Counted from the stretch's first letter, positions 9,572-45,073 are shown. The stretch: DNA of 64,000 nt from Thermodesulfobacteriota bacterium (GCA_965205855.1 OZ242184.1:822570-886569), one strand, 5' to 3'. Notes: a model not told the origin generated them from the letters alone. Program-made: numbers and translations.

Positions 9572-9644
<73 letters not shown>

Positions 9645-9661
9645 TAAAATGTTCTTCGCAG

Positions 9662-10837
<1,176 letters not shown>

Positions 10838-10887
10838 CTGTCTCTACCTCCTGAGGCTTTCTAAACGAAAAATGTCATAGTTTGTAC

Positions 10888-10960
<73 letters not shown>

Positions 10961-10973
10961 AGCATTTTTGATG

Positions 10974-11047
10974 AGCGGGAGACGGGGCTCGAACCCGCGA
11001 CCCTCAGCTTGGAAGGCTGATGCTCTGGCCAACTGAGCTACTCCCGC
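10974..11047 (-). tRNA. tRNA-Gly (anticodon TCC)
   Basis: Reverse complement GCGGGAGTAGCTCAGTTGG...TCAGCCTTCCAAGCTGA...GGTTCGAGCCCCGTCTCCCGCT. The anticodon stem TCAGC/GCTGA has the loop CUUCCAA. Confidence 0.75.
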
Positions 11048-11063
11048 AGGCCACCCGTGTTTA

Positions 11064-11146
11064 TGGGGAGGGTAGGATTCGAACCCACGTAGGCTTGCGC
11101 CGGCAGATTTACAGTCTGCTGCTTTTGGCCACTCAGCCACCTCCCC
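11064..11146 (-). tRNA. tRNA-Tyr (anticodon GTA), class II with a long variable arm
   Basis: Reverse complement GGGGAGGTGGCTGAGTGGCCAAAAGCAGCAGACTGTAAATCTGC... with a long extra arm and GGTTCGAATCC T-arm. Confidence 0.75.
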
Positions 11147-11195
11147 TGTTTTACGAAAAACAACAGACATTAAAAAACTCGCACCGCAGGTTTCC

Positions 11196-11269
11196 CAGCT
11201 GGCGAAGGGAATTGAACCCCCGACCTGCTGATTACAAATCAGCTGCTCTGCCAACTGAGCTACGCCAGC
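11196..11269 (-). tRNA. tRNA-Thr (anticodon TGT)
   Basis: Reverse complement GCTGGCGTAGCTCAGTTGGCAGAGCAGCTGATTTGTAATCAGC...GGTTCAATTCCCTTCGCCAGCT. The anticodon loop is UUUGUAA. Confidence 0.75.
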
Positions 11270-30885: not shown

Positions 30886-31569
30886 GTGATGGCAGAGAAT
30901 CTTGCGTTATTGAAGGAGAGTCCTTTGCCGCTCAAAGCCGTCATATTTGACATGGACGGGGTGCTTATAGAAAGCGAGCCCCTGTGGGAAGCGGCGGAAA
31001 TCACCCTTCTCAAATCAAGAGGCATAGAATACGACCCTCTTTTCAGAGAAAAAGTTATCGGGCTCAATCAGATTGACTCATCAAAACTCATCATTCGGGA
31101 ATTTGGCGTGAAAAACTGTTCGCCCGAAGAGATGATAAGACAGCGTATAGAAATTCTTCTTGGGATTTACGATAAAAAACTCACAATGTTTGAAGGCTCT
31201 AAAGCGCTTGTTGAAAAGATACGGGAAAGCGGATTTAAGACCGCCCTGGCGTCCAGCTCACCCATGGAAGTGATAACGTATGTGCTTGAAAGGTTTTCAC
31301 TTACGAAACTTTTTGACGCGGTGGTTTCAGGTAGCTGCATTCAAAACGGCAAGCCCGCTCCCGATATCTACTTGCTCGCGGCGGAGCAGCTCGGGGTTCA
31401 ACCGCCTGAATGCGCCGCGGTTGAAGACTCGCCCATAGGAGTAAAATCCGCCGTTTCCGCCGGAATGTTCTGCATCGGCGTTCCCGACAAGCGGCTCAAA
31501 GCCGAAGAGTTTGAAATCTGTGATGTGATTTGTGAAAACATCGGGCAAGTGGAAAAAATAATCGCTTAA
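30886..31569 (+). CDS. HAD-family phosphatase (beta-PGM-like)
   Basis: Motifs AVIFDMDGVLIESEPLW and AVEDSPIGVKSAVSAGMFCIGV. Confidence 0.7.
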   Translation: MMAENLALLKESPLPLKAVIFDMDGVLIESEPLWEAAEITLLKSRGIEYDPLFREKVIGLNQIDSSKLIIREFGVKNCSPEEMIRQRIEILLGIYDKKLTMFEGSKALVEKIRESGFKTALASSSPMEVITYVLERFSLTKLFDAVVSGSCIQNGKPAPDIYLLAAEQLGVQPPECAAVEDSPIGVKSAVSAGMFCIGVPDKRLKAEEFEICDVICENIGQVEKIIA

Positions 31570-31576
31570 ATTTTCT

Positions 31577-32239
31577 TTAATCGCATGGCGACATAAAGCA
31601 GTTGGAATCATGCACATTACCCGGGCTGTAATCAGTTGACTTAATGAACCCATCTTCATCCACATTAATGTGCGCCTTGTAACCATAGGTACTTTTGCGC
31701 TTTCCATCCGACCCGGCTTTTACATTCCAGCCGACCTCGGGGTCTTGGGTCGAATGACCTTCCTGGTTCTTGTGGGGACGGCATTGCTTCGCTTCAATCA
31801 CACTGGCATCAACAATACTGACCCCTCCCGATTGGATGTAAAGCCCTTGTTCGCTCAATTGAGTGTTGATCTCACGGAGGCACTCATCCATTAAGGACAA
31901 GCTCTCCAGCGTTTGTCTAAACCGCCAAAACGTCGCGTGATTCGGCACAGATTCTGAAATGTCCAGACCGGTGAAGCGACGAAACAGCAGATCCCGTGCC
32001 AACTGCTTTTCCAGTGCCGGGTCACTGAGTCCGTACCAGCTTCGCAGCAATAAAGCTTTAAACATCATCAATGGTGGCCAGGCCTTCTCGCCCCGAGGGT
32101 TTGAATGAATACCTGAAAGCTGTTGCTCCAGGCGCGACCAATCGATTAATTCGTGCACGGCATCCAGTTCTTTGAGCGCATCATGCTCGAGCAACAGGCC
32201 ATCCGCCAAACTGCGTTGCCTGAGGTTTTTCCAGGCCAT
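31577..32239 (-). pseudogene. IS5-family DDE transposase, C-terminally truncated
   Basis: 220-aa ORF MAWKNLRQRSL...LSDPALEKQLARDLLFRRFTGL...STYGYKAHINVDEDGFI, which is the N-terminal two-thirds of the 39273..40257 transposase. Confidence 0.8.
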
Positions 32240-32336
32240 TTCTTCTTCTCCAGGGGGTATAGTGGTGGGGTATAGTGCTTGAGCCTATTATCGCAAATTC
32301 TCAACGCAGATTCTTCTGGTTTTATGCAAAGGTCTC
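31594..32336 (-). mobile_element. truncated IS5-family insertion sequence (copy 1, ~740 bp), covering the right ~60% of the element
   Basis: ~95% nucleotide identity to 39612..40345, including the terminal GAGACCTTTGCA inverted-repeat end at 32336. Similarity stops abruptly at 31594, 24 nt after the HAD gene stop. Confidence 0.8.
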
Positions 32337-32540
32337 TAATAAGTAGAACTGTCCGATCACAGACCTCCAGAAAACGCCGCGATGCCTCATTCTGGGTGGG
32401 ACGGCTTTCCGTCCACCCTCCGATAGCTGATAAGCTCGCTGATCAAGTACATCGAACAACATCGCTGTTAACTGTTTCGTTTCCAGGAAATGATGAAACT
32501 GCAAAATCACACTCTCATCGGGAAGACGATCATCGTCCAA
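32322..32540 (-). pseudogene. remnant of a second, different IS5-like transposase N-terminal domain
   Basis: 72-aa ORF with LPDESVILQFHHFLETKQLTAMLFDVLDQRAYQLSEGG. This resembles the InsH-type N-terminal motif (PDxTTLxxFRxxLxxxxLxxxLFxxV...GL) but is unrelated in sequence to the flanking IS copies. Confidence 0.3.
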
Positions 32541-32690
32541 ATCCTAATGCGCAAAACGACGCATCGATTCGACCTTTGGCATACTGTCTTCCGTTAGTGG
32601 GTCGGACAGGTACTGTTTTCCATCGGGTTTCGCGGCACTGTAAGCGAGGCAGGTGGCCTTCGTCACAAGCGTTGGCAACGAGCTACTATC

Positions 32691-35600
32691 TCAATCTTTA
32701 TTTTCCGCCTTAAAATGCTTCGCCTCGCCAATGAGCGCCTCTATTTCCTCTCTTTTGCTTGTCGTAAGCCTTCTCAAGCCAACGCGATTGACGATGTAAT
32801 CCAGAGGGGAGTGCCGGTTACGGTCAGCGGAAATAGCATCTAGTGCCAGGCCGAGCTTTTCTGGATAGGGAACCTGTTCCCAAGAGCGTTCTTCACCGCC
32901 AAATTCAAGGCCGCGAAACTTGAGTACTTTTTCAGGTGGCTGATGATGCGGCCAGAAAATGTTTTCCCCCGACGGGCCTTTTTGAATTCGGCGCTTTTTG
33001 TGAACTGCTGCCCTGACCGTTTTTTTGATTCGAGAACCGCTTCTCCGGAACCCATGCAATCGTGCCATCTTCTGGCAAAGATGTTCGTGGGTGATCGGCC
33101 CGAACCGGTCAATGATGTCAGTGCCCAAGTCCATCAGGGTAGAGCGATATTCGTCATCGTAGAAGGAATCCGAATCGAGTCTTCGATTTCCCTGTGTAGA
33201 ACTCCTGCCATCAAGCCGATCAGCTGCGGGTAGTGAGCTCCGTGGTTGCTCAATTGAGTTTTCCCTATCTTGCCCGGTTTGCTGAATTTCCCTATCGTGC
33301 GGCGAATTATGGGGCCGCGTGCGCGCAGCTTTGGGTGCCCGCTCCACTTTTTCCACGACAGCTGTTCGGAGATGGTTGCCGATCAGGACGTCAATTTCGT
33401 CGCCTTCTTCAGTTCCCAGGAGTGCTTCGCCCAACGGCGTAAAAGTGCCGACAATGCTGTTCGACGGATCGTTGTTTCGATCGTCCAGTGTCACTTTCAG
33501 AAATTCATCAGGGTCGTCCAGGTATCGAACCTGGACGGTGTCTCCAGGGCCGACGCCTACGCCGAAACCGTATTTTTCTTCTTCGGTGGCTTTTTGGTCA
33601 TCGTCGGATACCTCGCTGAGCTCATCATCTTCGATGGGCTGAACAATGGCAGTCGATTGCGTTTCCAGTGAAGTTTCGGTGAATTTATCAGCATTTCTTT
33701 TCAGATCTTCCATGCGTTGAGTAATAACGCCCCGCAGTATCTCGGCTTCGCGAGGAGGGTCATTGAACCAATCCGTCGACCAAATCCGGTGGAAATGCCA
33801 CCCGAGGCCCTCGAGCACCTCCTGGCGAAGTCTGTCGCGGTCTCTGGCGGATTTCGAGGAATGATAACTGGCACCGTCGCATTCGACCCCAAGAATGTAA
33901 CCGTGGGGCCAATTCGGATGTTTGACGCCGATATCGATAAAGTAGCCAGCAACGCCGACCTGTGGTACGGCCCCGCATCCCATCGCTTTAATCTGGTCGA
34001 TTACGAAAACCTCGAACTCCGAGCCAGGCTCCCCGGGGGCATGTGTCCCGCCTTCGAGTACCCCGGTTTCCGAGTAGTCGAGCCACCGCTTGAGCATGTA
34101 GGTTCCTGGGTTGCCGTTTTCATCCGCACGAATATCTGCAGCGGTCATTGATGAGAAAGTGATAATCTGCTCTTTGGCGCGTGAAAAGAGCACGTTCAAA
34201 CGGCGCTTACCTGCAAGTCCGTTGATGGGGCCAAAACGCTGCATGACCGGCCCGCCAGTGTTTTCGGATCCATAGACGGTTCCAATAAAAATTACGTCCC
34301 TTTCGTCGCCCTGAACATTTTCGAGATTCTTAATAAAGAAACTCTCAAGCCCATCGTTCTTCTCGTTCCAATAATTAACATAGTCTGCAGCCTTCTTCCT
34401 TGTCCTTAAAGCATCTTCCATCTCCTCGATCATCAGGTCTCGCTGTTTCTGATTCAGCGTGACGATACCGAGAGAGCGATCCGGGCTCCGTTCCATGAAA
34501 TCCAGCGCCGCATCGACCATCACCCGGGATTCCGGCCCGTTTATTCCCGATTGGTAAATACCGTCGACAGAGACGCGAGACACGCCCATGTCCTTGCGGC
34601 CCTCATGGGCGGAGGGAAAAACGATCAGCTTATCGTCATAAACGAGTTTGTTGGAAAACTTGATCAAGTCCGAATGGCGTGATCGATAATGCCAGCGGAG
34701 CTGCCTTTTTGGTCTGAACGCAGCGTTTGCCAGTTCGAGGATCGACTCATCCAGCACGGTCTCGTCCTCGTCCTCCTCGTCGATCATCCTGCGAAAGAAG
34801 GTGGTAGGGGGCAGTTGATTGGTGTCCCCAACGATCATCGTCTGTTTCGAGCGGATCAGCGCACCGAAGGCATCTTCGGGTGGCATTTGTGACGCTTCGT
34901 CGATGATGCAAAGATCGAACTCGACCGTGCCTCGGGGAAGGTATTGTGCAACGGCCAGCGGCGACATCATCCAACAGGGCTTCAACTCCTGAAGGGCTTT
35001 ACCTGATCTCTCAGCAAGGGCGCGCATGGGGACAAACCTTTTTTTCTTGCTTATTTCGTTTTCGATGAGCGCCCACTCAGTCAATTCAGATTTTTTGCCC
35101 ACTCGTATGCCTGGCGGCGGATTCGCAGATTGTTGAATGCGCTGTCTGATCATCTGTCTTGTAGATTGGATGATCTGCTTGTCCGCATTTGCGAGCTTTT
35201 CGCGTAGATCATCCAGTTTTGACCCATGAAAACGCCCTAAAACGGAATTAAAATCGTGATCGCGATAAACGCGCTTTGCCAGGCTCCTTGCAACCAGGGC
35301 ATTGGCGATTTTCGGGAGATCAGAAAGCGGGATGCAATTTTCCTGACAGATGTTCGCGAGTTTGGGGTGTCCGAATTTCGCAAAAGAATCCAGAGCAACT
35401 GCGTATTCGGAGCGCTTGTACATCTCTTCAGAATTATGGACGGCCTGTTTCAGGAAGTCGGCTATTTGAGCATTCGTCCGACCTGTACGGAAGTGGGCGT
35501 CATTCTGGCCTGTCAGGCCGGACAACGCGTTGAGCCGATTCGCCGCCATGCTTGATAAATTTAGATACTTTTCCAGTTGAGAACGGAAATCTGCAACTTT

Positions 35601-38600
35601 GTTATCGCGGATCAACTTGACGATGAGTTCTCGCCATTCTTCCACCGCTGGCAACACGGTTTTCGCAATGGAAAGTTCCGGTTCCGCGTCATTTGCGACG
35701 GTATCATGCCCACTAAACTGATCTTGGAGCAATGCTCGCACCGGCTCCTTATCCGTTAATTCCGCATGAATTTCGTGCAACCTGACAACATCACTCCGGA
35801 GCACCTGCAATCCGACGATGTCAAGCCGGTCCGCTGCGGGAATGTCCGACAGAAGTGTAGACAGCTCTTGGATTCCCGACTCGAAAGATTCTTTGCGCCG
35901 GGTTAACTCGTCAATTCGTTCCAGCAGGCTCTCGTAGTCTCCCTCCCATTCGGGAAGGGAAATCTTCGGGATAGACACGAGCAGATCCAGAGCGCCATGC
36001 TTCAGAACGTCACGGATCGCCAGCTTTTCTACACCGGGGAGCCTTTGCTCAACGACTTCGAAGAATTTCAGAAGGTTCCCGAAGGAAACGAAGTCGGTAT
36101 CAAGGCCCAGGTTGTGGAGTCCAAGGACACTGTCCAGGGCAGGCAGCTTGAAAAACCGGTCTTTTTCGTCAAGCCAATCAGACAACGCTTTGAGATCCGA
36201 TGCCGCAGAGACCCTGTCAAAGCGGGCCGCATAGGCAAGTTCCATATATGCTTGCTTGGCAGACCGATAGGACGGCGAGAGAAAACCAAACATCCCGGCC
36301 TCAGCGATCTGGCAAGCATGTTGCCGCAGGTGCTGAGGGTCAGTTTCCGTCTTTAGAGAAACCCGCGTACCCAAGTCGACCGCTGACCTTTTTAATTTCT
36401 CGCCGAGTTCGCAGACTTGCCGGATGACGATGGCAGCCTCAGGCGACGCGGTTGTTTCGTTCCTAAGTGCAAGAGCGGCACGGTCGGTCTTTTCGATGAT
36501 GCCAGCCGCACATTGGAGATCACATATCAAGAAGTCTCGGCACTCAGGAAATGCTTCAAGAAATGGCCTTAGTTTCGTGGAGAGAGCCTGGAGATCTTCG
36601 AGCTTGCTATTGTCTGCACCTTGCCTGCTTTCAAGCTCCTTGAGGCTGAGGGTTTCGAAGTCGTGCGCCTGACAGACACGTTCAATTTCGGTAAGCCGTT
36701 CATTCCAGACCGCGTCCATTGGCTCTCGGACGCTTCTTCCGATTTCATCAATGCGGTCGCGCAACGCATTGCAATCGGAAATGAACTGCTCGATATGATC
36801 GACCGAATCTTGGTCTAACAGCCGATCCACCAGATCTGCATCCGGGCGAGCTCCGGTAAGCTCCACACCATTAAGGCAGGATTTCAGAAGATCCAGATCC
36901 TGTTCGTATTGAGAACTCTCCATTCCCATATCGTTCAACGCTTGTTCCAGAACACTCAAGGAATGGAAAGATTTCTCCGCCGCGTTGGCAGTTTCACCAA
37001 TTTTCTCGACATCAAACTTACTGATATTCTCGACGCTCAAGCCTCGCCAGTAATCGCCGACGTCCTTCAGTTTTCCCCATGCACGCCCGAGGGATTCTGC
37101 GGCGCTGATAATGTTCTCAACCTGAGACGAAGACATGTCCTCGATTTGGTCGAAGTCGATGTCTCGAATTTCTTTGGGCAAGTTGTCTAGAATCTCGTGG
37201 GTGGCGATATTCTTTCCCAATATCTCATGGACGGAGAGCTCCGAATTTCCGAACTTCCTACCGATAACGGAAACGTATTCGGCGAGCTCTGCCCGATACT
37301 TGTTGAAATTCTCTCGAATACTTTCGAGATCGTGGTAATTACTCACAGTCTCCATCTCAACCCGGCCCCGAATCGACTGGATCACCTTTTCCTTTGTCGA
37401 ACGTTCGGCTTGAAGCGGTAGGACGAATTCGCCAAGGCCCACGGATTCGAGGCGCGATTTTACAATCTCAAGAGCGGCCATCTTTTCGGCCACGAAGAGC
37501 ACTTTCTTGCCAGAGCCCAACGCACACGCAATCGCATTCACGATCGTCTGGGATTTCCCTGTCCCCGGCGGCCCTTCGACTGCGAGGTTCCTTCCTTCGG
37601 CCAGGTCGACAAGTGTGCTGAACTGCGAGGAGTCCGCGTCCATAACAACGTATGGCACTTTTTCTTCGATTTCGGGGGCATCCATTTCATATTCCTCCTC
37701 GAACGGGGTCGCGGAGGAAGCTTCTGTACCGATAAGCATCGTCTCGATAATGTCGCTCTGTTCAAAAGTCGCACTGGATGTATCAAGATCGTGATACATT
37801 GCCATTCGAGAAGACGGGAAAACACCAAAGACAACTTGCCGGCGCACGCGGATATTGAGGTTACTGGGCAGCGCATCAGCGACGCGTTTCAAATAGTCCT
37901 CGACGGAACCGCCTTCGTAGCCTGGAAGTTCAATACCGAAATCTTGCTTAAGCTTCTCCGCAAGCACCAGATTCGTCTCGGCCTCATCGCCGCGGCCGTT
38001 AACCCGGAACTCCAGACCTTTGCGCGTTTTTTTCTTTTCCAGTTCGACCGGGAGAAGGACTATCGGAGAGAAGTAAACCCTGTCTTCCTTCGGTTCCTTC
38101 CATTCGAGAAAGCCGAAAGCTGCATGCAACACATTGATGCCGGATTCCTGAATCCATGTCCGGGATTTCGCCAAAATTCCATTCAGTTTCCGTTCGAACT
38201 CGCCGGGAAGAAGGAGAGTCTGGATATCCTCGTCAGTATGACGCCCGTCTTCATGTTCTTCCTCTGGCAGAGGAAGGTCGTAAGACGGGGAGATGTGATT
38301 GTTCTTTGCGTGCTGGGATAGTGACGTATCCCCCTGCTCTGCTCGGGGCAACATCCCCAGCTGCTCTCTTACGCGATCCTTCAGGTCACGGTCTATTTGC
38401 TCTTCGCGGTCGAGCGCCTCCGCCGCATCCGGATCGAGGTTTTGCAACTGCTCGAGATAGGCTTCGCCGACGGCACGGGCTTGGCTAAGCGCATTTCGGA
38501 ACTCTCGCGTCTGCTCGTCTTTTGGATCGTCTTCGAGGGACGGCAGGGGCACAAAGCGCATCGGTTTTTGGAGCGAGAGGTTCGCCATAAGCACGTCCGG

Positions 38601-38765
38601 CAATTCATCAACGATTCGTGCAAACGGTCCTCGCCGACCCAAATTCGCCGATATCAGAGGGTTGCGGCGCGTAAGATCAAGCAGTTTTCGGCGTAGATTC
38701 TCTACCTTGTCTTTCAGTATCTGGACAAACCCCTCTTGATCTGTGCTGTTTTCGACTCGATCCAT
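32691..38765 (-). CDS. giant (2024 aa) DUF4011-like / Upf1-like SF1 helicase / Vsr-type PD-(D/E)xK endonuclease / GreA-C-like multidomain protein; candidate Hhe-like defence helicase-nuclease
   Basis: N-terminus RRKLLDLTRRNPLISANLGRRGPFARIVDELPD (DUF4011-like). Walker A VEGPPGTGKSQ at aa ~398. After an ~880-aa coiled-coil-rich insert come DLCIIDEASQM (motif II), MIVGDTNQLPP, GIVTLNQKQRD, VQGDERDVIFIGTV and RLNVLFSRAKEQI. Next is a DUF559/Vsr-like block GYFIDIGVKHPNWPHGYILGVECDGASYHSSKSARDRDRLRQEVLEGLGWHFHRIWSTDWF, then a GreA-C-like segment GDTVQVRYLD...IVGTFTPLGEALLGTEEGDEIDV. Confidence 0.85.
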   Translation of the reverse strand: MDRVENSTDQEGFVQILKDKVENLRRKLLDLTRRNPLISANLGRRGPFARIVDELPDVLMANLSLQKPMRFVPLPSLEDDPKDEQTREFRNALSQARAVGEAYLEQLQNLDPDAAEALDREEQIDRDLKDRVREQLGMLPRAEQGDTSLSQHAKNNHISPSYDLPLPEEEHEDGRHTDEDIQTLLLPGEFERKLNGILAKSRTWIQESGINVLHAAFGFLEWKEPKEDRVYFSPIVLLPVELEKKKTRKGLEFRVNGRGDEAETNLVLAEKLKQDFGIELPGYEGGSVEDYLKRVADALPSNLNIRVRRQVVFGVFPSSRMAMYHDLDTSSATFEQSDIIETMLIGTEASSATPFEEEYEMDAPEIEEKVPYVVMDADSSQFSTLVDLAEGRNLAVEGPPGTGKSQTIVNAIACALGSGKKVLFVAEKMAALEIVKSRLESVGLGEFVLPLQAERSTKEKVIQSIRGRVEMETVSNYHDLESIRENFNKYRAELAEYVSVIGRKFGNSELSVHEILGKNIATHEILDNLPKEIRDIDFDQIEDMSSSQVENIISAAESLGRAWGKLKDVGDYWRGLSVENISKFDVEKIGETANAAEKSFHSLSVLEQALNDMGMESSQYEQDLDLLKSCLNGVELTGARPDADLVDRLLDQDSVDHIEQFISDCNALRDRIDEIGRSVREPMDAVWNERLTEIERVCQAHDFETLSLKELESRQGADNSKLEDLQALSTKLRPFLEAFPECRDFLICDLQCAAGIIEKTDRAALALRNETTASPEAAIVIRQVCELGEKLKRSAVDLGTRVSLKTETDPQHLRQHACQIAEAGMFGFLSPSYRSAKQAYMELAYAARFDRVSAASDLKALSDWLDEKDRFFKLPALDSVLGLHNLGLDTDFVSFGNLLKFFEVVEQRLPGVEKLAIRDVLKHGALDLLVSIPKISLPEWEGDYESLLERIDELTRRKESFESGIQELSTLLSDIPAADRLDIVGLQVLRSDVVRLHEIHAELTDKEPVRALLQDQFSGHDTVANDAEPELSIAKTVLPAVEEWRELIVKLIRDNKVADFRSQLEKYLNLSSMAANRLNALSGLTGQNDAHFRTGRTNAQIADFLKQAVHNSEEMYKRSEYAVALDSFAKFGHPKLANICQENCIPLSDLPKIANALVARSLAKRVYRDHDFNSVLGRFHGSKLDDLREKLANADKQIIQSTRQMIRQRIQQSANPPPGIRVGKKSELTEWALIENEISKKKRFVPMRALAERSGKALQELKPCWMMSPLAVAQYLPRGTVEFDLCIIDEASQMPPEDAFGALIRSKQTMIVGDTNQLPPTTFFRRMIDEEDEDETVLDESILELANAAFRPKRQLRWHYRSRHSDLIKFSNKLVYDDKLIVFPSAHEGRKDMGVSRVSVDGIYQSGINGPESRVMVDAALDFMERSPDRSLGIVTLNQKQRDLMIEEMEDALRTRKKAADYVNYWNEKNDGLESFFIKNLENVQGDERDVIFIGTVYGSENTGGPVMQRFGPINGLAGKRRLNVLFSRAKEQIITFSSMTAADIRADENGNPGTYMLKRWLDYSETGVLEGGTHAPGEPGSEFEVFVIDQIKAMGCGAVPQVGVAGYFIDIGVKHPNWPHGYILGVECDGASYHSSKSARDRDRLRQEVLEGLGWHFHRIWSTDWFNDPPREAEILRGVITQRMEDLKRNADKFTETSLETQSTAIVQPIEDDELSEVSDDDQKATEEEKYGFGVGVGPGDTVQVRYLDDPDEFLKVTLDDRNNDPSNSIVGTFTPLGEALLGTEEGDEIDVLIGNHLRTAVVEKVERAPKAARTRPHNSPHDREIQQTGQDRENSIEQPRSSLPAADRLDGRSSTQGNRRLDSDSFYDDEYRSTLMDLGTDIIDRFGPITHEHLCQKMARLHGFRRSGSRIKKTVRAAVHKKRRIQKGPSGENIFWPHHQPPEKVLKFRGLEFGGEERSWEQVPYPEKLGLALDAISADRNRHSPLDYIVNRVGLRRLTTSKREEIEALIGEAKHFKAENKD

Positions 38766-39136
38766 TTTTGTCTCTTTACTCAGTTGTTTGACTGTAACAT
38801 CAGCCTATGGGATTAGTTTGACATAGAGTGATTCATCGTCAAAATATCCTATAGCCACTGCCTATTAGCGACGATTATGCGATTTTTTGAGATGCTAGTT
38901 AAGGGGAATCTAATGAAATTCATAGCCACGCTGGCGACTCTGCCCAGAACTGCCGACCTGCTGACTCTATCAAACATCGATCCTTATTTTACAACATGTC
39001 ATATGACTAACAGAACTTGGACCTCGGCTCACACAGATCTAAATTTCTTGTTCCCAAATAACATCAATCTAGATCCTATATAATCAAGCACATCAACACT
39101 ATATCGCTTGTGGTGGCGACTGGAATACTGAGATTA

Positions 39137-40345
39137 GAGACCTTTGCACGGACACATTGTAGAGTTTATCAGTTCTTCAAACGGGCTTTTTTTTGAGAAA
39201 AATGCCCAAAAAGCACTCAATCAGCCGTATTGGTTGGCCGATTAGCCCATCTTTCCACCCCTTTTTCATTTTTTAGGCGCAACTTGCCTGCTGAAGCGAT
39301 AAACCCCGCTTGATATTGTCGGCGACGCACATCAACTCAAAGCGCGTGCGGTTACGGCCAAGACCCAGGTAGCGGGCTTTGCCCATCCCGTAGTGTAGCT
39401 TTAACACCCCAAAGACACGTTCCACCGTACAGCGTACCCCCGAATGAAGCCGGTTAAACTTCCTCCCCTGTGCATCCAACGGCTGGTTGCGATAAGCCAC
39501 GTTTGATGATCCGATTATCTATCTGTCGCTCCGCCAGCCACGGGTCGTGAGCCTGACTACGATAAGCATTATCCGCATAAACCGCCGTCTCATCGCCGCT
39601 TAATAAATCCGTAAAGCAGTTGGAATCATGCACATGACCCGGGCTGTAGTCGGTTGACTTAATGAACCCATCTTCATCCACATTAATGTGCGCCTTGTAA
39701 CCATAGGTACTTTTGCGCTTTCCATCCGACCCGGCTTTCACATTCCAGCCGACCTCGGGGTCTTGGGTCGAATGACCTTCCTGGTTCTTGTGGGGACGGC
39801 ATTGCTTCGCTTCAATCACACTGGCATCAACAATACTGACCCCTCCCGATTGGATGTAAAGCCCTTGTTCGCTCAATTGAGTGTTGATCTCACCCAGGCA
39901 CGCATCCATCAAGGATAAGCGCTCCAGCGTTTGTCTAAACCGCCACAACGTCGCGTGATCCGGCACCGATTCTGAAATGTCCAGACCGGTGAAGCGACGA
40001 AACAGCAGATCCCGTGCCAATTGCTTTTCCAGTGCCGGGTCACTGAGTCCGTACCAGCTTCGCAGCAACAAAGCTTTAAACATCATCAATGGTGGCCAGG
40101 CCTTCTCGCCCCGAGGGTTTGAATGAATACCTGAAAGCTGTTGCTCCAGGCGCGACCAATCGATTAATTCGTGCACAGCATCCAGTTCTTTGAGCGCATC
40201 ATGATCGATCAACAGGCCATCCGTCAAACTGCGTTGCCTGAGGTTTTTCCAGGCCATTTCTTCTCCAGTGGAGGGGTATAGTGCTTGGGCGGCCTATTAT
40301 CTCAAATCCTCAACGTAGGTTCTTCTGGTTTTATGCAAAGGTCTC
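39137..40345 (-). mobile_element. full-length IS5-family insertion sequence (copy 2, ~1.2 kb) with terminal inverted repeats GAGACCTTTGCA
   Basis: Inverted-repeat-left GAGACCTTTGCAcgg at 39137 and inverted-repeat-right tatGCAAAGGTCTC ending at 40345. The internal transposase is in the same orientation as copy 1. Confidence 0.8.
39273..40257 (-). pseudogene. IS5-family DDE transposase, split by a frameshift near 39480-39500
   Basis: ORFs 39454..40257 (...TAVYADNAYRSQ...IIKRG) and 39273..39500 (AYRNQPLDAQGRKFNRLHSGVRCTVERVFGVLK...) together make a typical ~320-aa IS5 transposase in two frames. Confidence 0.75.
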
Positions 40346-40370
40346 AATTTAAGAAATAAGAATAGTAATG

Positions 40371-40420
40371 GGGTCAGAGTAATATTTATCCCCCATGGTT
40401 TCTTAATTCGACTCTGACCC
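40371..40420 (-). terminator. perfect 10-bp inverted repeat GGGTCAGAGT...ACTCTGACCC (30-nt loop) followed by a T-rich tract on the minus strand; putative terminator of the 40437..41510 gene, abutting the IS end
   Basis: Seen directly. On the minus strand the hairpin is followed by CATTACTATTCTTATTTCTT. Confidence 0.4.
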
Positions 40421-40436
40421 TTATTGTTTCCTTTCG

Positions 40437-41510
40437 TTATTTTTCACTAATGATATATGGGAACTGTATTTTATAACGCATTGCATTGTTTGCGTTATCG
40501 TCAATTGCTACACCGGTCATTAGCTGTAATACCGTATTCATCGCATCGTCGTGCAAGGCACGTCCGTTAAGGCCGTTCACCGTATAATTCGCCTTTGTAC
40601 CGATTTTGTAATTCATAATATCCGGCATCACCATATCAGCCACCTTGTATGCATGTTTTTTTGCTACGGCAGGCTTTGCGCCAGCCACTGATGTCGCCCA
40701 AAAAACATTGTGAATAATCGTCTGGCGTCTTTCCGCAACATCTAAATCGGGACGATGTTGCCCATGATCTTCATGCACAGCGGGTGTATCAGAAAGAAAG
40801 ACATAAGGGAAAAGTACATTCGCGTGGCGATCAACCTGACACCACTCATCTTTGTAAAAAACTGATGTTGTTGTAAAAAACTTAACTTCACTCCCTAACA
40901 TTTTATTAGGAACATCCACCACAATAAAACTCGCCGTTGCACCTATAAATAAATCTCCATCTTCTTTAAAAATCTCCGGCGCAAAAGTGCCTTTTTGTTT
41001 AGCTGCATTAAATTTAGCTAATCCCACACCATTTCCAAAAAAAGGATCATTGCCTCTACCCACCCAAACACGCATGCCGTTTGATAGGTTTATTTTTTTA
41101 CCCACCTGCCCATTACCTGTCGGCTTTCCTTTTTCTCCCACTTTCGCATTGGGAGTATCTATTTTTGAGATAGAAACGTTTCCTTTTTGAAAAGAGAACA
41201 CCAGTGTCATACCTTTTTTAAAAGCCATATCTTGCGCAAAATGAAGATTATAAAGCCCACCTTGAGCAAACACTACACCAGCAGGTGACGTGCCTGTTCC
41301 TGGCTGACTCGGATTAGATGAAGAGATAAAAGAGGTATACCCCTTATTGCTAGACTGGAACACATAAGTGTCATTAAGATCATAAGCAGGATACTTGCCC
41401 TGCAAACCCGATATAAAGTGCCCAGAAGCATGCACAGTACCCACCGCATAAGCTAAACCTAATAATGCGGTTACAAATATAAATCCACTTTTTATAATAC
41501 TATTTTTCAT
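40437..41510 (-). CDS. secreted hypothetical protein (signal peptide; possibly DUF4331-like)
   Basis: N-terminus MKNSIIKSGFIFVTALLGLAYAVGTVHA is a Sec signal. It is a G/N/K-rich mature protein with ...NGRALHDDAMNTVLQ... and lies in an AT-rich (~38% GC) segment. Confidence 0.5.
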   Translation of the reverse strand: MKNSIIKSGFIFVTALLGLAYAVGTVHASGHFISGLQGKYPAYDLNDTYVFQSSNKGYTSFISSSNPSQPGTGTSPAGVVFAQGGLYNLHFAQDMAFKKGMTLVFSFQKGNVSISKIDTPNAKVGEKGKPTGNGQVGKKINLSNGMRVWVGRGNDPFFGNGVGLAKFNAAKQKGTFAPEIFKEDGDLFIGATASFIVVDVPNKMLGSEVKFFTTTSVFYKDEWCQVDRHANVLFPYVFLSDTPAVHEDHGQHRPDLDVAERRQTIIHNVFWATSVAGAKPAVAKKHAYKVADMVMPDIMNYKIGTKANYTVNGLNGRALHDDAMNTVLQLMTGVAIDDNANNAMRYKIQFPYIISEK

Positions 41511-41567
41511 ATTACATACCCTCTTTGATTATTAATTTTGATTATTAATATAGGGGAATTATATACG

Positions 41568-42398
41568 ATGTTAGCCATATTTAATAACATTCCTGACCAA
41601 AGTATCTGGACTGCCTACCAGCATTACATCAAACTTCAGGGATGGTTCAACCCGAGCGGACTGGAACTCATGGCGCCTAAGCACAATGGGACTTATGCAT
41701 GTAGGCACTGGCGAGGGACCCCAGATTATTCAGATGCAAATGACAACTACTTTCCACATTACAAACTATCCGTGGATGCAACGGAAGAGACTCTAATAAA
41801 AGATATTGAAAACTTAAAAAAAAATCTCAAAGAGGGTCTGCATGCAAATCTACAACTGAATGTTTTGCTATATTCGCTTCACGCCTACAAACCGCTCCTG
41901 CAAGCAAGGCAAAACTGCCCCGTGCGCATAAGCCCTGTTGCCTTAAACAAAGACGAAGCGGACTTTGTTGAATTTCTGGTTCAAGTTGTAAGAAGCGAAG
42001 ATATTGACAAGGAGATTTATCTGATGCGCAACCTGACCAAAGGGAAAGGCATTTCCTTCTTTGACACCCACTCTTTTTATCCTGACTTCATACTTTGGAT
42101 GAAAGACGGTAAAAGACAGGACATTCTCTTTATAGACCCAAAAGGTCTTCAAAAGTTTGACAGAAAAACCAAATCCAAAACGGGTTTGCACAAGCAGATA
42201 AAAGAAACAGAAAAGAAGATTCAAAAGAAAAATCCCAAACTTTTTCTTCACTCCTATATCTGGTCAACAACCCATCCTCAGGACATTGGTTCCGATAAGA
42301 ATCTCACGGAAGAAGAACTCAAGAAGTCGGGAGTCTTCTTTGCTTCAAATAGAAAGTCTGAACTTAAAGAACTTTTGAACCATGCTCTCAAGAACTGA
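41568..42398 (+). CDS. hypothetical protein with a PD-(D/E)xK-like nuclease motif
   Basis: Translation ...[37 protein letters not shown]... (PD ... D-x-K). ATG at 41568 is preceded by GGGG. The ORF-track TTG start at 41538 is less likely. AT-rich sequence with a K-rich C-terminus. Confidence 0.5.
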
Positions 42399-42401
42399 CC
42401 G

Positions 42402-42890
42402 CTACCGGTTCTTCGGAAAGTCAAAATCAACCATTTCCGATTTCGCGGTTGAGATATTCGCCCACAGTTCCGCATCAGTTTCAATATGAACAACCCCGCA
42501 GGTCGGAACATTCCCTATTGTCTTGCCCGTAAGAGAGTTGGCCAAATCGGTTATGGCAAAATTATGGCAGAAAACGGCGACTGTGGAAAAACTCTCGTCG
42601 ATTGACTCAACAGCCCGAAGAAGAGAAGTTTCGTCAAAAGTGTAAAACGCCTCGTCGCTTATTATGTTTTCGGGTGCGAACCCGGCGCTCTGCGCGAGAA
42701 GTTTTGCCGTGTCAAGTCCCCTTCTCGCCGAACTTGAATAGAAAGCATCAAACTGCACCGGTGTTTTTTTCAAGCGAAGACCCATGTGCGAAGCGTCTGC
42801 AATACCCCTCCCGGAAAGCGGCCGGTCAAAATCCACGACCCGTTCTTTTCGGGAAGATTTCGCGTGGCGGATTAAAAAAAGCGTTTTCAT
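42402..42890 (-). CDS. histidine-phosphatase-family protein (SixA-like)
   Basis: N-terminus LFLIRHAKSSRK...RPLSGRGIADASHMG carries the RHG motif of the phosphoglycerate-mutase/SixA family. Confidence 0.7.
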   Translation of the reverse strand: MKTLFLIRHAKSSRKERVVDFDRPLSGRGIADASHMGLRLKKTPVQFDAFYSSSARRGLDTAKLLAQSAGFAPENIISDEAFYTFDETSLLRAVESIDESFSTVAVFCHNFAITDLANSLTGKTIGNVPTCGVVHIETDAELWANISTAKSEMVDFDFPKNR

Positions 42891-45073
42891 TTTACTCGCG
42901 CGAGTTTTCGGACAAACTGCCTGGACACCTCCACCGAAGAAGCGTAGAAATTCGCCTTGCTCGGCCCGTAACCTATTTTGATTGAATACGCCCGTTCGGG
43001 AAGCTCTCCGAACATATCTTCATCCGTCATATCGTCCCCCATTGCTATAACGCAATCCCAATCGCCCGGAAGCCAACGGCGGGTTGAAGCCCCTTTGCTA
43101 ACTGAAAAATGCCTCACTTCTATGACTTTGTTTCCATGCATAATATTGAGCCCGAGATTTTGTACGATGCCGGCAAGAGTCTCATTCAACTCCCCCACCC
43201 TGACAACGGCAAGAGACGGATCGACCCCCCTGTAGTGCCACGCGAGAGAGTAATCTTTTTTTTCCACAAAAGAGCCCGGTGTTCTGTCGGTAAAAATTTC
43301 AAGAATTAGTGAAACATCTTTTTTCCAATCAGTGGCGGGAGAAACCGCACGCTCCCATTTTGCGCCGTCCTTTATCCACGCTCCGTGCTCCGCGACAATG
43401 CAATCGCTCACGTTTCCCAGCCATTTTGAAAGGGTTTTTCTGTCCCTGCCGCTTACAATAACAAGTTTCGCGCGGGGATTTGAATTAATCGCGCGCAGGC
43501 ACTTTTTAATTTCTTCATCGGGTTTCGCGTCATGGGGATTTTTTCTGAACGGAACAAGAGTGCCATCATAGTCAAGAAAAACAATAGATTTACGGCTTGC
43601 CCGGAATCTTTGGATAATTTCTCCTGATACTCTTGTTGAAAGGAATTTTGAAGACATCTCCCCCTGCCGTTTTTTCATACTGCGCAGTTTGTCCATAAAA
43701 TCATTTTTCCAGCGCATAAGGTCATACCTTATAAGCCTGTCTCTCATTGCCTTCATTTTCCGTTTGCGCTCCGCTGCTGGCATTTCAAGAGCTGACAGCA
43801 AAGCGGCCGAAGTCATTGATATATCATTGGGATTTACAATCAAAGCCTCGCCAAGCTCTCTTGAAGTCCCGGCTGTTTCGCTGAGTATCAACATACCAAG
43901 CCCTTCCGGTCGGGAAGCGACATACTCCTTCGCAATAAGGTTCATTCCGTCACGCGACGGGGTAATAAACAAAACATCCGCAAGAGAGTAAAGAGAAACC
44001 ATCCCCTGAAAATTAAAAGATCTGTAAAGATATTTAATCGGCTCCCAGTTGAGAGTTCCCCATTTGCCATTTATTTCACTAACCATCCGTTCAATGTTTG
44101 AGCGCAAAGCCCTGTAGCGGCCCACTTCGGTTCGTGAAGGAACAGCGACAAGCAAAAGTATGACTTTGCCCTTCCAACCGGGGTTTTCTTTTAGAAACAA
44201 GTTGTAGGCTTCAAGGCGTTTTTCTATGCCCTTTGTGTAGTCCAGCCTATCTATTGAGAGGATGACGCGGCAGTGGTCCGAAAAAAGCCTCTTCTTTTTT
44301 TTCCTGTATTTTTTGACCGCGGGGGATTTAAGAGCAGATGCAAACTTCTCCACATCCACTCCCATAGGAAACATATCCGCCTTTACAAGACGCTCTCCGA
44401 CCGAAAGAACACCGAGAGAGTTTTCAATCTGTTTAACCCTTCTGACACTTTCAGCAAAATGCCTCACATAATCAAAGGTGTGAAACCCGATTAAGTCCGC
44501 GCCGAGCAGGCCGTCTATTATCTCGGAACAAGCGGGAATAGACCTGAATATCTCAGAAGACGGAAACGGCGTGTGCAGAAAAAACCCTATTTCGGCATCC
44601 GGAAGCTTGTCTCTGAGAAGTGAGGGAAGCAACATCAGGTGATAGTCGTGTATCCAGATGGTATCGTCCTCTTTCGCGATTTTCAGAACGGCACGGGCAA
44701 ATTTCTCATTAACATTCCGGTAATCCCTGTAGTAATCATCTTTGTATTCGGCAAACTGCGGAAAATAATGAAAAAGCGGCCAGATGGTTGAATTGCAAAA
44801 ACCGTTGTAATATCCGTCGGTTTCCTTGTCGTCGAGAAAAACCGGCGACAGATGTTTGTCCGCAAGAGCGCGTTCAAGTTTGCGGCGCTCTTCGCCGTTT
44901 AATGAAGAGAATGAAACTCCGGGCCATCCGACCCAGACTTGCCGCTTTCCGAATTGCAAGCCACCAACCCCGGTCGCAAGTCCTCCGACATTGCGGTTGA
45001 GAACAAATCTCCCCTGTTTCCTCAATCCGGCGGAAAACGGAAGACGGTTTGAAACTGTTATTATCTTTGGCAT
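42887..45073 (-). CDS. otsAB: bifunctional trehalose-6-phosphate synthase / trehalose-6-phosphatase (OtsA-OtsB fusion)
   Basis: N-terminal GT20 domain (IITVSNRLPFS..., FLHTPFPSSEIFR, WIHDYHLMLLP) and a C-terminal HAD phosphatase (IVFLDYDGTLVPF...IAMGDDMTDEDMF). Confidence 0.85.
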   Translation of the reverse strand: MPKIITVSNRLPFSAGLRKQGRFVLNRNVGGLATGVGGLQFGKRQVWVGWPGVSFSSLNGEERRKLERALADKHLSPVFLDDKETDGYYNGFCNSTIWPLFHYFPQFAEYKDDYYRDYRNVNEKFARAVLKIAKEDDTIWIHDYHLMLLPSLLRDKLPDAEIGFFLHTPFPSSEIFRSIPACSEIIDGLLGADLIGFHTFDYVRHFAESVRRVKQIENSLGVLSVGERLVKADMFPMGVDVEKFASALKSPAVKKYRKKKKRLFSDHCRVILSIDRLDYTKGIEKRLEAYNLFLKENPGWKGKVILLLVAVPSRTEVGRYRALRSNIERMVSEINGKWGTLNWEPIKYLYRSFNFQGMVSLYSLADVLFITPSRDGMNLIAKEYVASRPEGLGMLILSETAGTSRELGEALIVNPNDISMTSAALLSALEMPAAERKRKMKAMRDRLIRYDLMRWKNDFMDKLRSMKKRQGEMSSKFLSTRVSGEIIQRFRASRKSIVFLDYDGTLVPFRKNPHDAKPDEEIKKCLRAINSNPRAKLVIVSGRDRKTLSKWLGNVSDCIVAEHGAWIKDGAKWERAVSPATDWKKDVSLILEIFTDRTPGSFVEKKDYSLAWHYRGVDPSLAVVRVGELNETLAGIVQNLGLNIMHGNKVIEVRHFSVSKGASTRRWLPGDWDCVIAMGDDMTDEDMFGELPERAYSIKIGYGPSKANFYASSVEVSRQFVRKLARVK

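What the first reader, a model, noticed from the sequence alone, without database searches (positions are those of the whole stretch)
31594..40345. Composite-transposon-like structure: truncated and frameshifted IS5-family copies in direct orientation bracket the helicase-nuclease island
Copy 1 (31594..32336) is only the right ~740 bp of the element. It ends 24 nt after the HAD gene stop. Copy 2 (39137..40345) is full length with GAGACCTTTGCA terminal inverted repeats, but its transposase is broken by a frameshift. The copies are ~95% identical and are not clones, which suggests an old acquisition. A fragment of a third, unrelated IS5-like transposase N-terminus lies at 32322..32540. No clear target-site duplication is visible at the IS ends. 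Both transposases look dead, so the island appears fixed. The abrupt truncation of copy 1 suggests a deletion or recombination event that may also have removed chromosomal genes between the HAD gene and the island.
Basis: seen in the sequence. Interest (0 to 1): 0.6.

Follow-up and report, generated by a model that had tools for sequence, protein, structure and literature searches.

The report
Dead IS-bracketed phage-defence gene cassette
Two decayed copies of an insertion sequence bracket a horizontally acquired 6.8-kb segment carrying an intact Hhe-like helicase-nuclease (a candidate anti-phage gene), lodged in a variable slot of a sponge-symbiont genome; it is a well-preserved but ordinary kind of mobile-DNA fossil.

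Summary
Copy 1 (31594-32336) is the transposase-proximal 743 bp of a 1.2-kb IS5-family element. Copy 2 (39137-40345) is full length, has perfect 12-bp terminal inverted repeats, and carries a 1-nt insertion that breaks an otherwise uniform 327-aa transposase. The copies are 95.9% identical sister copies in direct orientation.

New findings:
- The 6.8 kb between them (32337-39136) is 97-99% identical to a segment in a compositionally unrelated 60-69% GC genome that lacks the flanking IS copies. Homology stops to the base at both inner IS ends.
- Three syntenic relatives (Ca. Mycalebacterium-like Dadabacteria) have HAD directly abutting HisPhos-otsAB. The helicase is therefore acquired, not ancestral, and no core genes were lost.
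- The slot (31570-42401) also holds a DUF4331 gene and a type III restriction-enzyme fragment. One relative carries a methyltransferase-HNH gene there, so this is a hotspot for accessory and defence genes.
- Intact relatives of the IS make 5-bp target duplications. Copy 2 has none.

The best reading is a composite-transposon-like unit, now immobilised. Transposition of the whole unit is inferred, not shown. It is a new member of a known kind and of modest interest.

The parts
30886..31569 (+). HAD-IA hydrolase gene; conserved left border of the variable slot
   Evidence: Pfam HAD_2 E 2.8e-30. It is 68-73% identical to the HAD of the syntenic relatives L086-L088.
31570..31593 (.). 24-nt stub between the HAD stop codon and the truncation point of copy 1
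   Evidence: Sequence read directly. No similarity to the IS or to the intergenic DNA of relatives.
31594..32336 (-). IS copy 1: truncated. It keeps the transposase-proximal terminal repeat (32325-32336), the leader and codons 1-215. It lacks the distal ~475 bp and the outer end.
   Evidence: Alignment to copy 2 at 95.9%. The 220-aa ORF has DUF772 and a partial DDE_Tnp_1. It carries 14 unique derived changes.
32337..39136 (-). 6.8-kb cargo segment, horizontally acquired
   Evidence: 96.7-98.7% identical to L085 9630-18029, with homology ending exactly at both inner IS ends. GC is 51.7%, and tetranucleotide correlation to the window flanks is 0.51-0.54, against 0.95 between the two flanks.
32412..32610 (-). 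Decayed N-terminal (DUF772) fragment of a second, divergent IS5/IS1182-type transposase with an in-frame stop; part of the cargo
   Evidence: Translation. DUF772 E 6.7e-5. 32% identity to P0001. Present downstream of the helicase in L084 and L085 too.
32691..38765 (-). Intact 2,024-aa Hhe-like helicase-nuclease: DUF4011, AAA_11/AAA_12 helicase, MTES_1575 nuclease, GreA/B-C-like domain, DUF3320
   Evidence: Pfam. PADLOC PDC-S37 1102 bits and Hhe 762 bits. NCBIfam Hhe_antiphage 1156 bits, below the cut-off of 2000. Full-length homologues at 91% (P0135).
38766..39136 (-). Native upstream non-coding region of the helicase gene, carried with the cargo
   Evidence: 368 of 371 bases identical to L085 9630-10000. 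The promoter-like site at 38902-38874 is not above chance.
39137..40345 (-). IS copy 2: full length, 1,209 bp, terminal repeats at 39137-39148 and 40334-40345. The transposase is split into 267-aa and 75-aa ORFs by a 1-nt insertion (plus-strand A at 39494/39495).
   Evidence: The repaired protein is 94% identical to the intact 327-aa P0001. NCBIfam IS5 family transposase NF033581 scores 262.6 bits against a cut-off of 140 for P0001. No 5-bp target duplication.
40346..42401 (.). Further accessory DNA in the same slot (GC 40%): a DUF4331 gene (40437-41510, -) and a 286-aa ORF (41538-42398, +) that is the C-terminal fragment of a type III restriction enzyme
   Evidence: Pfam DUF4331. PADLOC REase_III E 9.4e-16, profile positions 947-1094 of 1154. 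Absent from L086-L088. GC.
42402..42890 (-). Histidine phosphatase gene (followed by otsAB at 42887-45073); conserved right border of the slot
   Evidence: Pfam His_Phos_1. 66-74% identical and collinear in L086-L088.

Best explanation
The region is an immobilised, composite-transposon-like cassette. Two sister copies of an unnamed 1.2-kb IS5-family insertion sequence, in direct orientation, bracket a 6.8-kb foreign segment. That segment carries an intact Hhe-like DUF4011 helicase-nuclease (a candidate single-gene anti-phage system), its own upstream region, and an older IS remnant. The cassette sits in a variable slot between the convergent HAD and HisPhos-otsAB genes of a Candidatus Mycalebacterium-like (Dadabacteria) sponge symbiont.

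**Shown**
- The cargo is foreign and recently shared with another genome.
- The breakpoints lie exactly at the IS termini.
- The slot is empty in relatives.
- The IS normally makes 5-bp target duplications, and copy 2 lacks one.
- The left copy has lost its outer ~475 bp, and the right copy has a 1-nt frameshift.

**Inferred**
- In a donor lineage that holds both the cargo and active copies of this IS, two IS copies came to flank the segment.
- The IS-cargo-IS unit then entered the slot, which already held restriction-modification debris. It entered either by transposition using its outer ends, or by recombination of an IS+cargo circle with a resident IS copy.
- Later an illegitimate deletion clipped the left copy and a point insertion broke the right transposase.
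- With no left outer end and no intact transposase in cis, the unit can no longer move, while the helicase gene remains open.
For: - **Sister copies.** The two IS copies are homologous and are each other's closest relatives. They are 95.9% identical and share 17 derived sites against five intact relatives.
- **Shared cargo.** Window 32337-39136 matches L085 9630-18029 at 96.7-98.7%. Similarity stops to the base at both inner IS ends, and L085 has no copy of this IS within 23.5 kb.
- **Foreign composition.** The cargo is compositionally foreign in all three genomes that carry it.
- **Empty slot.** L086, L087 and L088 are collinear with the window for about 9 kb to the left and 8 kb to the right. 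They have HAD next to HisPhos-otsAB and no slot content.
- **Target duplications.** Four intact IS copies carry 5-bp target duplications, whereas copy 2 is flanked by GATTA and AATTT. DNA outside copy 2 does not continue the L085 homology.
- **Plausible donor.** The L085 lineage also carries intact copies of this IS. Its CoaBC clusters with proteins on the 2.47-Mb and 1.16-Mb contigs, which hold 327-aa transposase members. L081 and L082 share its composition, with tetranucleotide correlation 0.92-0.94.
- **Broken transposase.** The listed homologues are almost all 327 aa, so the split ORF is a mutation rather than programmed frameshifting.
Against: - The left outer end and its flank are deleted. 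The defining test, a 5-bp duplication flanking the whole unit, cannot be made.
- No second instance of IS-cargo-IS was found. The only near-identical cargo copies (L085, L084) lack this IS.
- In L085 the host GC resumes within 25 nt of one cargo end, and both junctions read ATTAAT. This hints that the cargo may have ends of its own.
- The two IS copies differ by 4.1%, whereas the cargo's 5' half differs from L085 by only ~1%. The bracketing copies were therefore not freshly duplicated when the cargo last moved, or recombination has blurred the record.
- The frameshift could be an assembly error, since no reads were available.
Confidence: 0.62

Rival explanations
1. There was no unit transposition. 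A larger foreign island carrying the helicase first integrated in the slot. Two copies of the IS then inserted independently on either side of the gene. IS-mediated adjacent deletions or other illegitimate deletions later removed the outer island DNA, the target duplications and part of copy 1.
For: - The slot demonstrably accumulates and loses accessory DNA. It holds a truncated type III Res fragment and a DUF4331 gene, and L087 has a different occupant.
- One deletion, the truncation of copy 1, certainly occurred.
- The copies are 4.1% diverged, more than the cargo's 5' half is from L085.
Against: - It needs at least two separate deletions that each ended exactly at, or inside, an IS.
- Copy 2 is complete, yet neither a target duplication nor any L085-like sequence survives outside it.
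- The two copies are sisters that share 17 derived sites. This fits a single origin as well as it fits two independent insertions.
Confidence: 0.22
2. The 6.8-kb segment is itself a discrete mobile cassette with its own termini (TAAT...ATTA). It is moved by an unidentified mechanism, and the IS ends coincide with its ends because that machinery, or the IS's target choice, acts there.
For: - In L085 the cargo has no flanking IS, yet it ends at the same bases as in the window.
- Host-type GC (62-69%) resumes within 25 nt at the radC side.
- Both L085 junctions read ATTAAT.
Against: - The cargo encodes no recombinase or transposase other than a dead fragment.
- In L084 the shared segment has different, shorter limits: window 32384-38845.
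- On the cobO side of L085, low-GC DNA continues about 300 nt beyond the cargo end, so there is no compositional break there.
- The termini share only 4 bp.
Confidence: 0.08
3. The structure is an assembly artefact. The contig was mis-joined or collapsed at IS repeats, or the frameshift and truncation are sequencing errors.
For: IS repeats are classic mis-join points. The source is a metagenome-derived 1.4-Mb contig, and no reads could be examined.
Against: - The copies differ at 30 substitutions and 2 indels, so they would not collapse.
- The truncation joins IS-internal sequence to unique DNA 24 nt from a conserved gene.
- The backbone on both sides is collinear with three relatives.
- The extra base lies in a 2-base run, not a long homopolymer.
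Confidence: 0.05
4. The helicase gene is ancestral to this lineage and the IS copies merely landed beside it.
For: None beyond the intact reading frame.
Against: - It is absent from three collinear relatives and from four more distant ones.
- Its composition is foreign.
- A 97-99% identical copy exists in a 60-69% GC genome.
Confidence: 0.02

Closest known systems
Composite (compound) transposons with directly repeated IS copies, e.g. Tn9 (IS1) (from general knowledge)
   Same: Two copies of one IS bracket a cargo gene that has no mobility function of its own. The cargo breakpoints lie at the IS termini. The individual IS copy lacks its own target duplication.
   Different: The left outer end is deleted, both transposase genes are broken, no flanking duplication can be checked, and no second instance of the unit was found.
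IS26-type pseudo-compound transposons / translocatable units (IS6 family) (from general knowledge)
   Same: The IS copies are in direct orientation. A unit of IS plus cargo could have integrated next to, or into, a resident copy. The inner copy has no target duplication.
   Different: This is a different IS family. No evidence shows that IS5-family elements form such units. Only RecA-type recombination between copies would be needed here, and it was not tested.
IS5 family insertion sequences; the closest named relative found is the ISAba23 family
   Same: It has a DUF772 + DDE_Tnp_1 transposase of 327 aa, matches NCBIfam NF033581 above the cut-off, is 1.2 kb long, and has terminal inverted repeats.
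   Different: It is only 52.6% identical in protein to ISAba23-family transposases, and no plasmid DNA matched. Its target duplication is 5 bp in four of four intact copies. From memory, the IS5 subgroup is usually quoted at 4 bp, which is a lead rather than a test.
Hhe, the DUF4011 helicase + Vsr-like nuclease single-gene anti-phage protein (NCBIfam NF042953; PADLOC Hhe and PDC-S37)
   Same: It has DUF4011, a Upf1-like AAA_11/AAA_12 helicase and an MTES_1575 nuclease in one ~2,000-aa protein. It aligns over residues 21-1721 to the Hhe model.
   Different: It scores 1156 bits against a cut-off of 2000, so it is not an equivalog. The best PADLOC match is the candidate family PDC-S37. It has extra GreA/B-C-like and DUF3320 domains at the C-terminus. 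No functional test was done.
Defence islands / integration hotspots between conserved core genes (from general knowledge)
   Same: The same intergenic slot holds different defence-type genes in different relatives. The window has the Hhe-like gene and a type III Res fragment. Ca. M. zealandia has a methyltransferase-HNH gene. Two other relatives have nothing there.
   Different: The slot is small (0-11 kb). No integrase or tRNA gene is associated with it, and only four genomes were compared.

Membership tests
IS5 family insertion sequence | DDE transposase matching a curated IS5-family model above its cut-off | tested here: met
   P0001, 94% identical to the repaired copy 2 protein, scores 262.6 bits on NF033581 against a cut-off of 140. 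The copy 2 ORFs hit DUF772, DDE_Tnp_1 and DDE_Tnp_1_6.
IS5 family insertion sequence | Terminal inverted repeats at both ends of a ~1-1.5 kb element | tested here: met
   The perfect 12-bp GAGACCTTTGCA repeat lies at 39137-39148 and 40334-40345. The element is 1,209 bp.
IS5 family insertion sequence | Short direct target-site duplication flanking an inserted copy | tested here: not met
   For the window's copy 2 the flanks are GATTA and AATTT. Four intact relatives in L081-L083 each have a 5-bp duplication, so the element does make them. The outer flank of copy 1 is deleted.
Composite (compound) transposon | Two copies of the same IS flank a cargo segment | tested here: met
   The copies are 95.9% identical sister copies in direct orientation around 32337-39136.
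Composite (compound) transposon | Both outer terminal repeats are present, so the unit can be cut out | tested here: not met
   Copy 1 lacks its outer ~475 bp and terminal repeat. Only three repeat matches exist in the window.
Composite (compound) transposon | A target-site duplication flanks the whole unit | tested here: inconclusive
   The right outer flank is AATTT. The left outer flank no longer exists. An AATTT at 31569-31573 is not adjacent to any IS end and is judged to be chance.
Composite (compound) transposon | At least one copy encodes a working transposase | tested here: not met
   Copy 1 is truncated at codon ~215. Copy 2 is frameshifted by a 1-nt insertion. Supply in trans from elsewhere in the 1.4-Mb genome could not be checked.
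Composite (compound) transposon | The same IS-cargo-IS unit occurs at another site | tested here: inconclusive
   The near-identical cargo in L085 and L084 lacks this IS. JGI metagenome scans for the cargo end and the IS end found nothing. ENA look-ups were exhausted.
Hhe anti-phage protein | Reaches the curated equivalog score of NF042953 | tested here: not met
   1156 bits against a cut-off of 2000.
Hhe anti-phage protein | DUF4011 + superfamily-1 helicase + Vsr/MTES_1575-type nuclease in one polypeptide | tested here: met
   Pfam DUF4011 (residues 27-272), AAA_11/AAA_12 (1282-1538) and MTES_1575 (1584-1678). PADLOC Hhe scores 762 bits.
Hhe anti-phage protein | Protects against phage | not testable with these tools
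   Needs a plaque assay with the cloned gene.
Horizontally acquired genomic island | Absent from the same site in syntenic relatives | tested here: met
   L086 and L088 have HAD 0-43 nt from HisPhos. None of the slot's DNA or proteins was found in L086-L088.
Horizontally acquired genomic island | Composition deviates from the host, and a near-identical copy exists in an unrelated genome | tested here: met
   GC is 51.7% against 45-47.5% for the host. Tetranucleotide correlation is 0.51-0.54 against 0.95 between flanks. The copy in L085, whose host DNA is 60-69% GC, is 97-99% identical.

The most novel reading that the evidence does not exclude
The 6.8-kb segment is delivered free of IS copies, and precisely bounded by the inner IS termini, from an IS-cargo-IS arrangement or from a tandem-dimer-like intermediate. 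The IS-free L085 copy has the very same end bases, and L081 holds a head-to-tail IS pair separated by exactly 5 bp. On this reading an IS5-family transposase, or a host system acting at TAAT...ATTA / ATTAAT, mobilises the DNA between two neighbouring IS copies rather than the copies themselves. That would be a mode of gene transfer not described for this family, and it would move a defence gene between unrelated sponge symbionts.
Probability: 0.07. Interest if true: 0.7.

Novelty: new member of a known kind. Interest (0 to 1): 0.35.

Why it matters
This is a clean, base-resolved example of one anti-phage candidate gene being passed between compositionally unrelated bacteria. The contigs come from related ENA assemblies, and the window's closest relatives are named as sponge symbionts (Ca. 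Mycalebacterium).

- An IS family that is active in the neighbouring genomes is the likely vehicle.
- A small slot between conserved genes repeatedly collects defence-type genes.
- For annotation, the helicase should be called Hhe-like and acquired.
- The two IS ORFs should be called pseudogenes of one unnamed IS5-family element.
- The HAD|HisPhos junction can serve as a marker site for accessory-gene turnover in this lineage.

It does not change what is known about transposition or defence.

Tried and rejected
- **Exact look-ups.** The source 1.4-Mb contig is not retrievable, so genome-wide IS counts were impossible.
- **DNA searches for the IS or cargo.** blastn of the IS against plasmids gave no match. 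Two JGI metagenome scans, for the cargo end and the IS end, gave no match.
- **Programmed frameshift.** Rejected. The family is almost uniformly a single 327-aa ORF. The shift is a 1-nt insertion relative to five intact copies and has no slippery motif.
- **IS remains in the stub.** MAFFT placed the 24-nt stub and the HAD 3' end against internal IS sequence (columns 349-366). At 12 of 18 matches this was judged an alignment artefact.
- **Left target duplication.** The AATTT at 31569-31573 was rejected as the missing left duplication, because the next 20 nt are not IS sequence.
- **Promoter and terminator scans.** Counts around the junctions were not above shuffled expectation.
- **Selection on the helicase.** dN/dS for the C-terminal half against L085 was computed on an unaligned offset and is discarded. 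The usable values are 0.56 against L084 and ~0.8 against the L085 N-terminal part, which rests on few changes.
- **Organism names.** Cluster look-ups for L081-L085 returned no names, so only composition is used to call those genomes unrelated.
- **PDB search.** The search for ORF286 found nothing.

Full report

Yes. A repeat search finds 31594-31893 matching 39612-39911 at 97%, and the right ends match as well. Pairwise alignment shows that copy 1 (31594-32336) corresponds to the right 734 bp of copy 2 (39137-40345).

The 12-mer GAGACCTTTGCA occurs at both ends of copy 2 in inverted orientation and at the right end of copy 1. It occurs nowhere else in the 64 kb. About 0.36 matches are expected by chance, and 0 of 100 shuffles reached 3. 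Copy 1 starts 24 nt after the HAD stop codon.

Aligned together with five related copies, the two window copies are 95.9% identical over 731 bases. They differ by a 12-nt and a 3-nt indel in the leader.

**2. What is the element?**

On the minus strand copy 2 encodes a 267-aa ORF (DUF772 + DDE_Tnp_1) and an overlapping 75-aa ORF holding the DDE C-terminal part. After the frame is repaired, the protein is 93-94% identical to intact 327-aa transposases. The listed homologues are almost all 327 aa.

An intact relative scores 262.6 bits on the NCBIfam IS5-family model NF033581, against a cut-off of 140. The closest named relatives among plasmids are ISAba23-family transposases at only 52.6%. No plasmid DNA matched. 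This is therefore an unnamed IS5-family element.

Five intact DNA copies from ENA metagenome contigs (L081-L083) read CGTGGC-TATCG where copy 2 reads CGTGGCTTATCG. The break is a single-base insertion in a two-base run, not programmed frameshifting.

Four of those intact copies are flanked by 5-bp direct repeats: ACGTT, ATCTT, ATTGA and AGGTA. Copy 2 is flanked by GATTA and AATTT. Copy 2 therefore did not simply insert where it now lies, or its flank has since been rearranged.

**3. How are the two copies related?**

They are sisters. They share 17 states that differ from all five other copies. Copy 1 has 14 unique changes, mostly in coding sequence. Copy 2 has 22 unique columns, mostly a deletion and clustered changes in the leader.

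Their 4.1% divergence is not in itself a sign of great age. Two intact copies with target duplications in one other genome (L083) are only 95.2% alike.

**4. What is the cargo?**

The 2,024-aa ORF (32691-38765, minus strand) has DUF4011, AAA_11/AAA_12, MTES_1575, a GreA/B-C-like stretch and DUF3320.

| Model | Score |
|---|---|
| PADLOC candidate family PDC-S37 | 1102 bits |
| PADLOC Hhe | 762 bits |
| NCBIfam 'DUF4011 domain-containing anti-phage protein Hhe' | 1156 bits, residues 21-1721; cut-off 2000 |

I therefore call it Hhe-like, not Hhe. DUF4011 proteins are annotated as Hhe in defence surveys (PMC11232893).

The frame is intact, and the C-terminus matches a 91% identical full-length homologue. 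dN/dS against that homologue is about 0.56.

Between the helicase stop codon and copy 1 lies a decayed DUF772 fragment of a different transposase. It matches at E 6.7e-5, is 32% identical to the main transposase, and has one in-frame stop.

**5. The key result: the same cargo elsewhere**

The two closest helicase homologues were located on ENA contigs. By blastn, window 32337-39136 matches L085 9630-18029 at 96.7-98.7%. That interval is exactly the DNA between the two inner IS ends.

At base level, identity runs up to ...GAGATTA| and |TAATAAGTAG... and then vanishes on both sides. L085 has no copy of this IS within 23.5 kb. There the segment lies between cobO and radC-coaBC-dut, and its helicase is split by a different, IS4-like element.

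A third genome (L084) shares window 32384-38845 at 91.5-95.7%, with different flanks again. The old DUF772 remnant travels with the helicase in all three.

The cargo has 51.7% GC and is compositionally foreign everywhere:

| Context | GC of flanks | Tetranucleotide correlation with cargo |
|---|---|---|
| Window | 45-47.5% | 0.51-0.54 (the two flanks correlate at 0.95 with each other) |
| L085 | host genes 60-69% | 0.36-0.46 (L085's own cargo copy) |
| L084 | 41-49% | 0.19-0.33 (L084's own cargo copy) |

**6. The empty site**

HAD homologues identify the source as a relative of Candidatus Mycalebacterium (Dadabacteria). The name is taken from NCBI names on hits at 68-69% identity.

Three such genomes (L086, L087, L088) are collinear with the window: about 9 kb to the left for L087 and L088 (about 3 kb for L086), and about 8 kb to the right for all three. 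Protein identities are 60-89%.

- In L086, HAD and the convergent HisPhos-otsAB are 43 nt apart.
- In L088 they overlap.
- In L087 (Ca. M. zealandia) a methyltransferase-HNH gene sits between them.
- None of the window's slot content (31570-42401) is found in these three, either as DNA or as protein.
- Four more distant relatives (L003-L006) carry an aldo-keto reductase there instead.

The helicase is therefore acquired, and no conserved chromosomal gene is missing.

The slot is also larger than the finding. To the right of copy 2 lie a DUF4331 gene and a 286-aa ORF, at 40% GC. The ORF matches only the last ~150 positions of a type III restriction-enzyme model at E 9.4e-16. So the slot held other defence DNA that has been partly deleted.

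**7. Mechanism**

*Shown:*
- The cargo is foreign.
- The breakpoints lie exactly at the IS termini.
- Copy 2 has no target duplication, and no L085-like DNA lies outside it.
- The L085 lineage also hosts intact copies of this IS. Its CoaBC clusters with proteins on the 2.47-Mb and 1.16-Mb contigs that carry 327-aa members, and L081 and L082 share its composition.

*Inferred:*
- Two IS copies came to flank the segment in such a donor.
- IS-cargo-IS then moved as a unit into the slot, either by transposition from its outer ends or by recombination of an excised IS+cargo circle with a resident copy. Both routes predict the same structure.
- A later deletion and a point insertion killed it.

The decisive check would be a 5-bp repeat flanking the whole unit. 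It is impossible because the left outer end is gone. I put this reading at about 0.6.

**8. Rivals and loose ends**

- Independent IS insertions into a resident island, followed by IS-adjacent deletions, cannot be excluded (about 0.2).
- A cassette with ends of its own is suggested by L085, where host-type GC resumes within 25 nt of one end and both junctions read ATTAAT. Against this, L084 has different limits, the cobO side shows no compositional break, and the cargo encodes no recombinase (about 0.08).
- Misassembly is unlikely given the divergence between the copies and the collinear backbone, but it is untested (about 0.05).
- An ancestral helicase is refuted.

Unexplained: cargo divergence from L085 is uneven. 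It is 99.2% identical upstream, 98.7% in the 5' half, 96.7% in the 3' half and 94.9% in the tail. This suggests recombination among variants.

**9. Verdict**

The 'composite-transposon-like' label is reasonable as a description of the structure.

The claims of old age and of lost chromosomal genes are not supported. The unit is a decayed member of a known kind: an IS-bracketed defence gene in an accessory-gene hotspot. Its value lies mainly in being a tidy, base-resolved case of transfer of a defence gene between compositionally unrelated genomes from related metagenome assemblies.

Noticed in passing
window 41538-42398 (+): The 286-aa ORF matches only the C-terminal ~150 positions (947-1094 of 1154) of a type III restriction-enzyme model (PADLOC REase_III, E 9.4e-16). 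It has no Pfam, NCBIfam or PDB sequence hit. It looks like a truncated Res gene ending 3 nt from the HisPhos stop codon, and so is debris of an earlier restriction-modification occupant of the slot.
   Followed up: partly
window 40437-41510 (-): This low-GC (~40-43%) gene encodes a 357-aa protein with an apparent N-terminal hydrophobic signal (judged by eye). Only residues 38-111 match DUF4331. It is absent from all syntenic relatives and has no PADLOC hit. Its function and origin are unknown.
   Followed up: partly
L087 10800-12260 (Ca. Mycalebacterium zealandia contig): The same HAD|HisPhos slot holds a 486-aa N6/N4 methyltransferase fused to an HNH nuclease in this relative. The slot therefore collects defence-type genes in more than one lineage.
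   Followed up: partly
L081 98-126: Two copies of the IS lie head to tail, with exactly 5 bp (TTATT) between the end of one and the start of the next. That is the same length as the target duplication. It resembles the junction of an IS dimer or circle, or it may be a nested adjacent insertion. The downstream copy also has an internal deletion (1,047 bp, 284-aa ORF).
   Followed up: no
L085 13507-15106: In the high-GC genome, a ~1.6-kb insertion encoding a 437-aa DDE_Tnp_1_4 (IS4-like) transposase splits the near-identical helicase gene into 1,180-aa and 805-aa ORFs. The window's copy is the intact one.
   Followed up: partly
L085 9624-9635 and 18024-18035: Both junctions of the IS-free cargo copy read ATTAAT (ACA|AT|TAATCTCAG ... 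CTACTTATTA|AT|AACATG). The cargo termini are TAAT...ATTA. Whether this is chance, IS target preference or real element ends is unresolved.
   Followed up: partly
window 32412-32610; L084 16213-16455; L085 17784-18038: The old DUF772 transposase fragment downstream of the helicase is conserved in all three genomes. It is an uninterrupted 80-84-aa ORF in L084 and L085 but carries a stop codon in the window. Its persistence next to the helicase is unexplained.
   Followed up: partly
window 32311-32324 and 40320-40333 (positions 13-14 inward from the transposase-proximal end): Both window copies read GCATAAAACC where all five intact relatives read GCACGAARCC. This shortens the match between the two terminal repeats from about 16 bp to 12 bp. 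It is a shared change that might weaken transposase binding.
   Followed up: no
window 32337-39136 vs L085: Divergence along the cargo is uneven: 99.2% identical upstream, 98.7% in the 5' half, 96.7% in the 3' half and 94.9% in the tail. This suggests a mosaic produced by recombination between cargo variants.
   Followed up: partly
L084 16830-17480 (-): A different truncated IS5-type transposase (216 aa, DUF772 + DDE_Tnp_1) lies ~370 nt beyond the cargo homology in the third genome. IS5-type elements therefore recur next to this helicase in every context seen.
   Followed up: no
window 9572-11269: This is an ordinary core region with a tRNA cluster (Thr, Tyr, Gly, Thr, then Trp). The 391-aa ORF at 9662-10837 is probably EF-Tu, judged by length and position but not scanned. 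Nothing unusual was seen.
   Followed up: no
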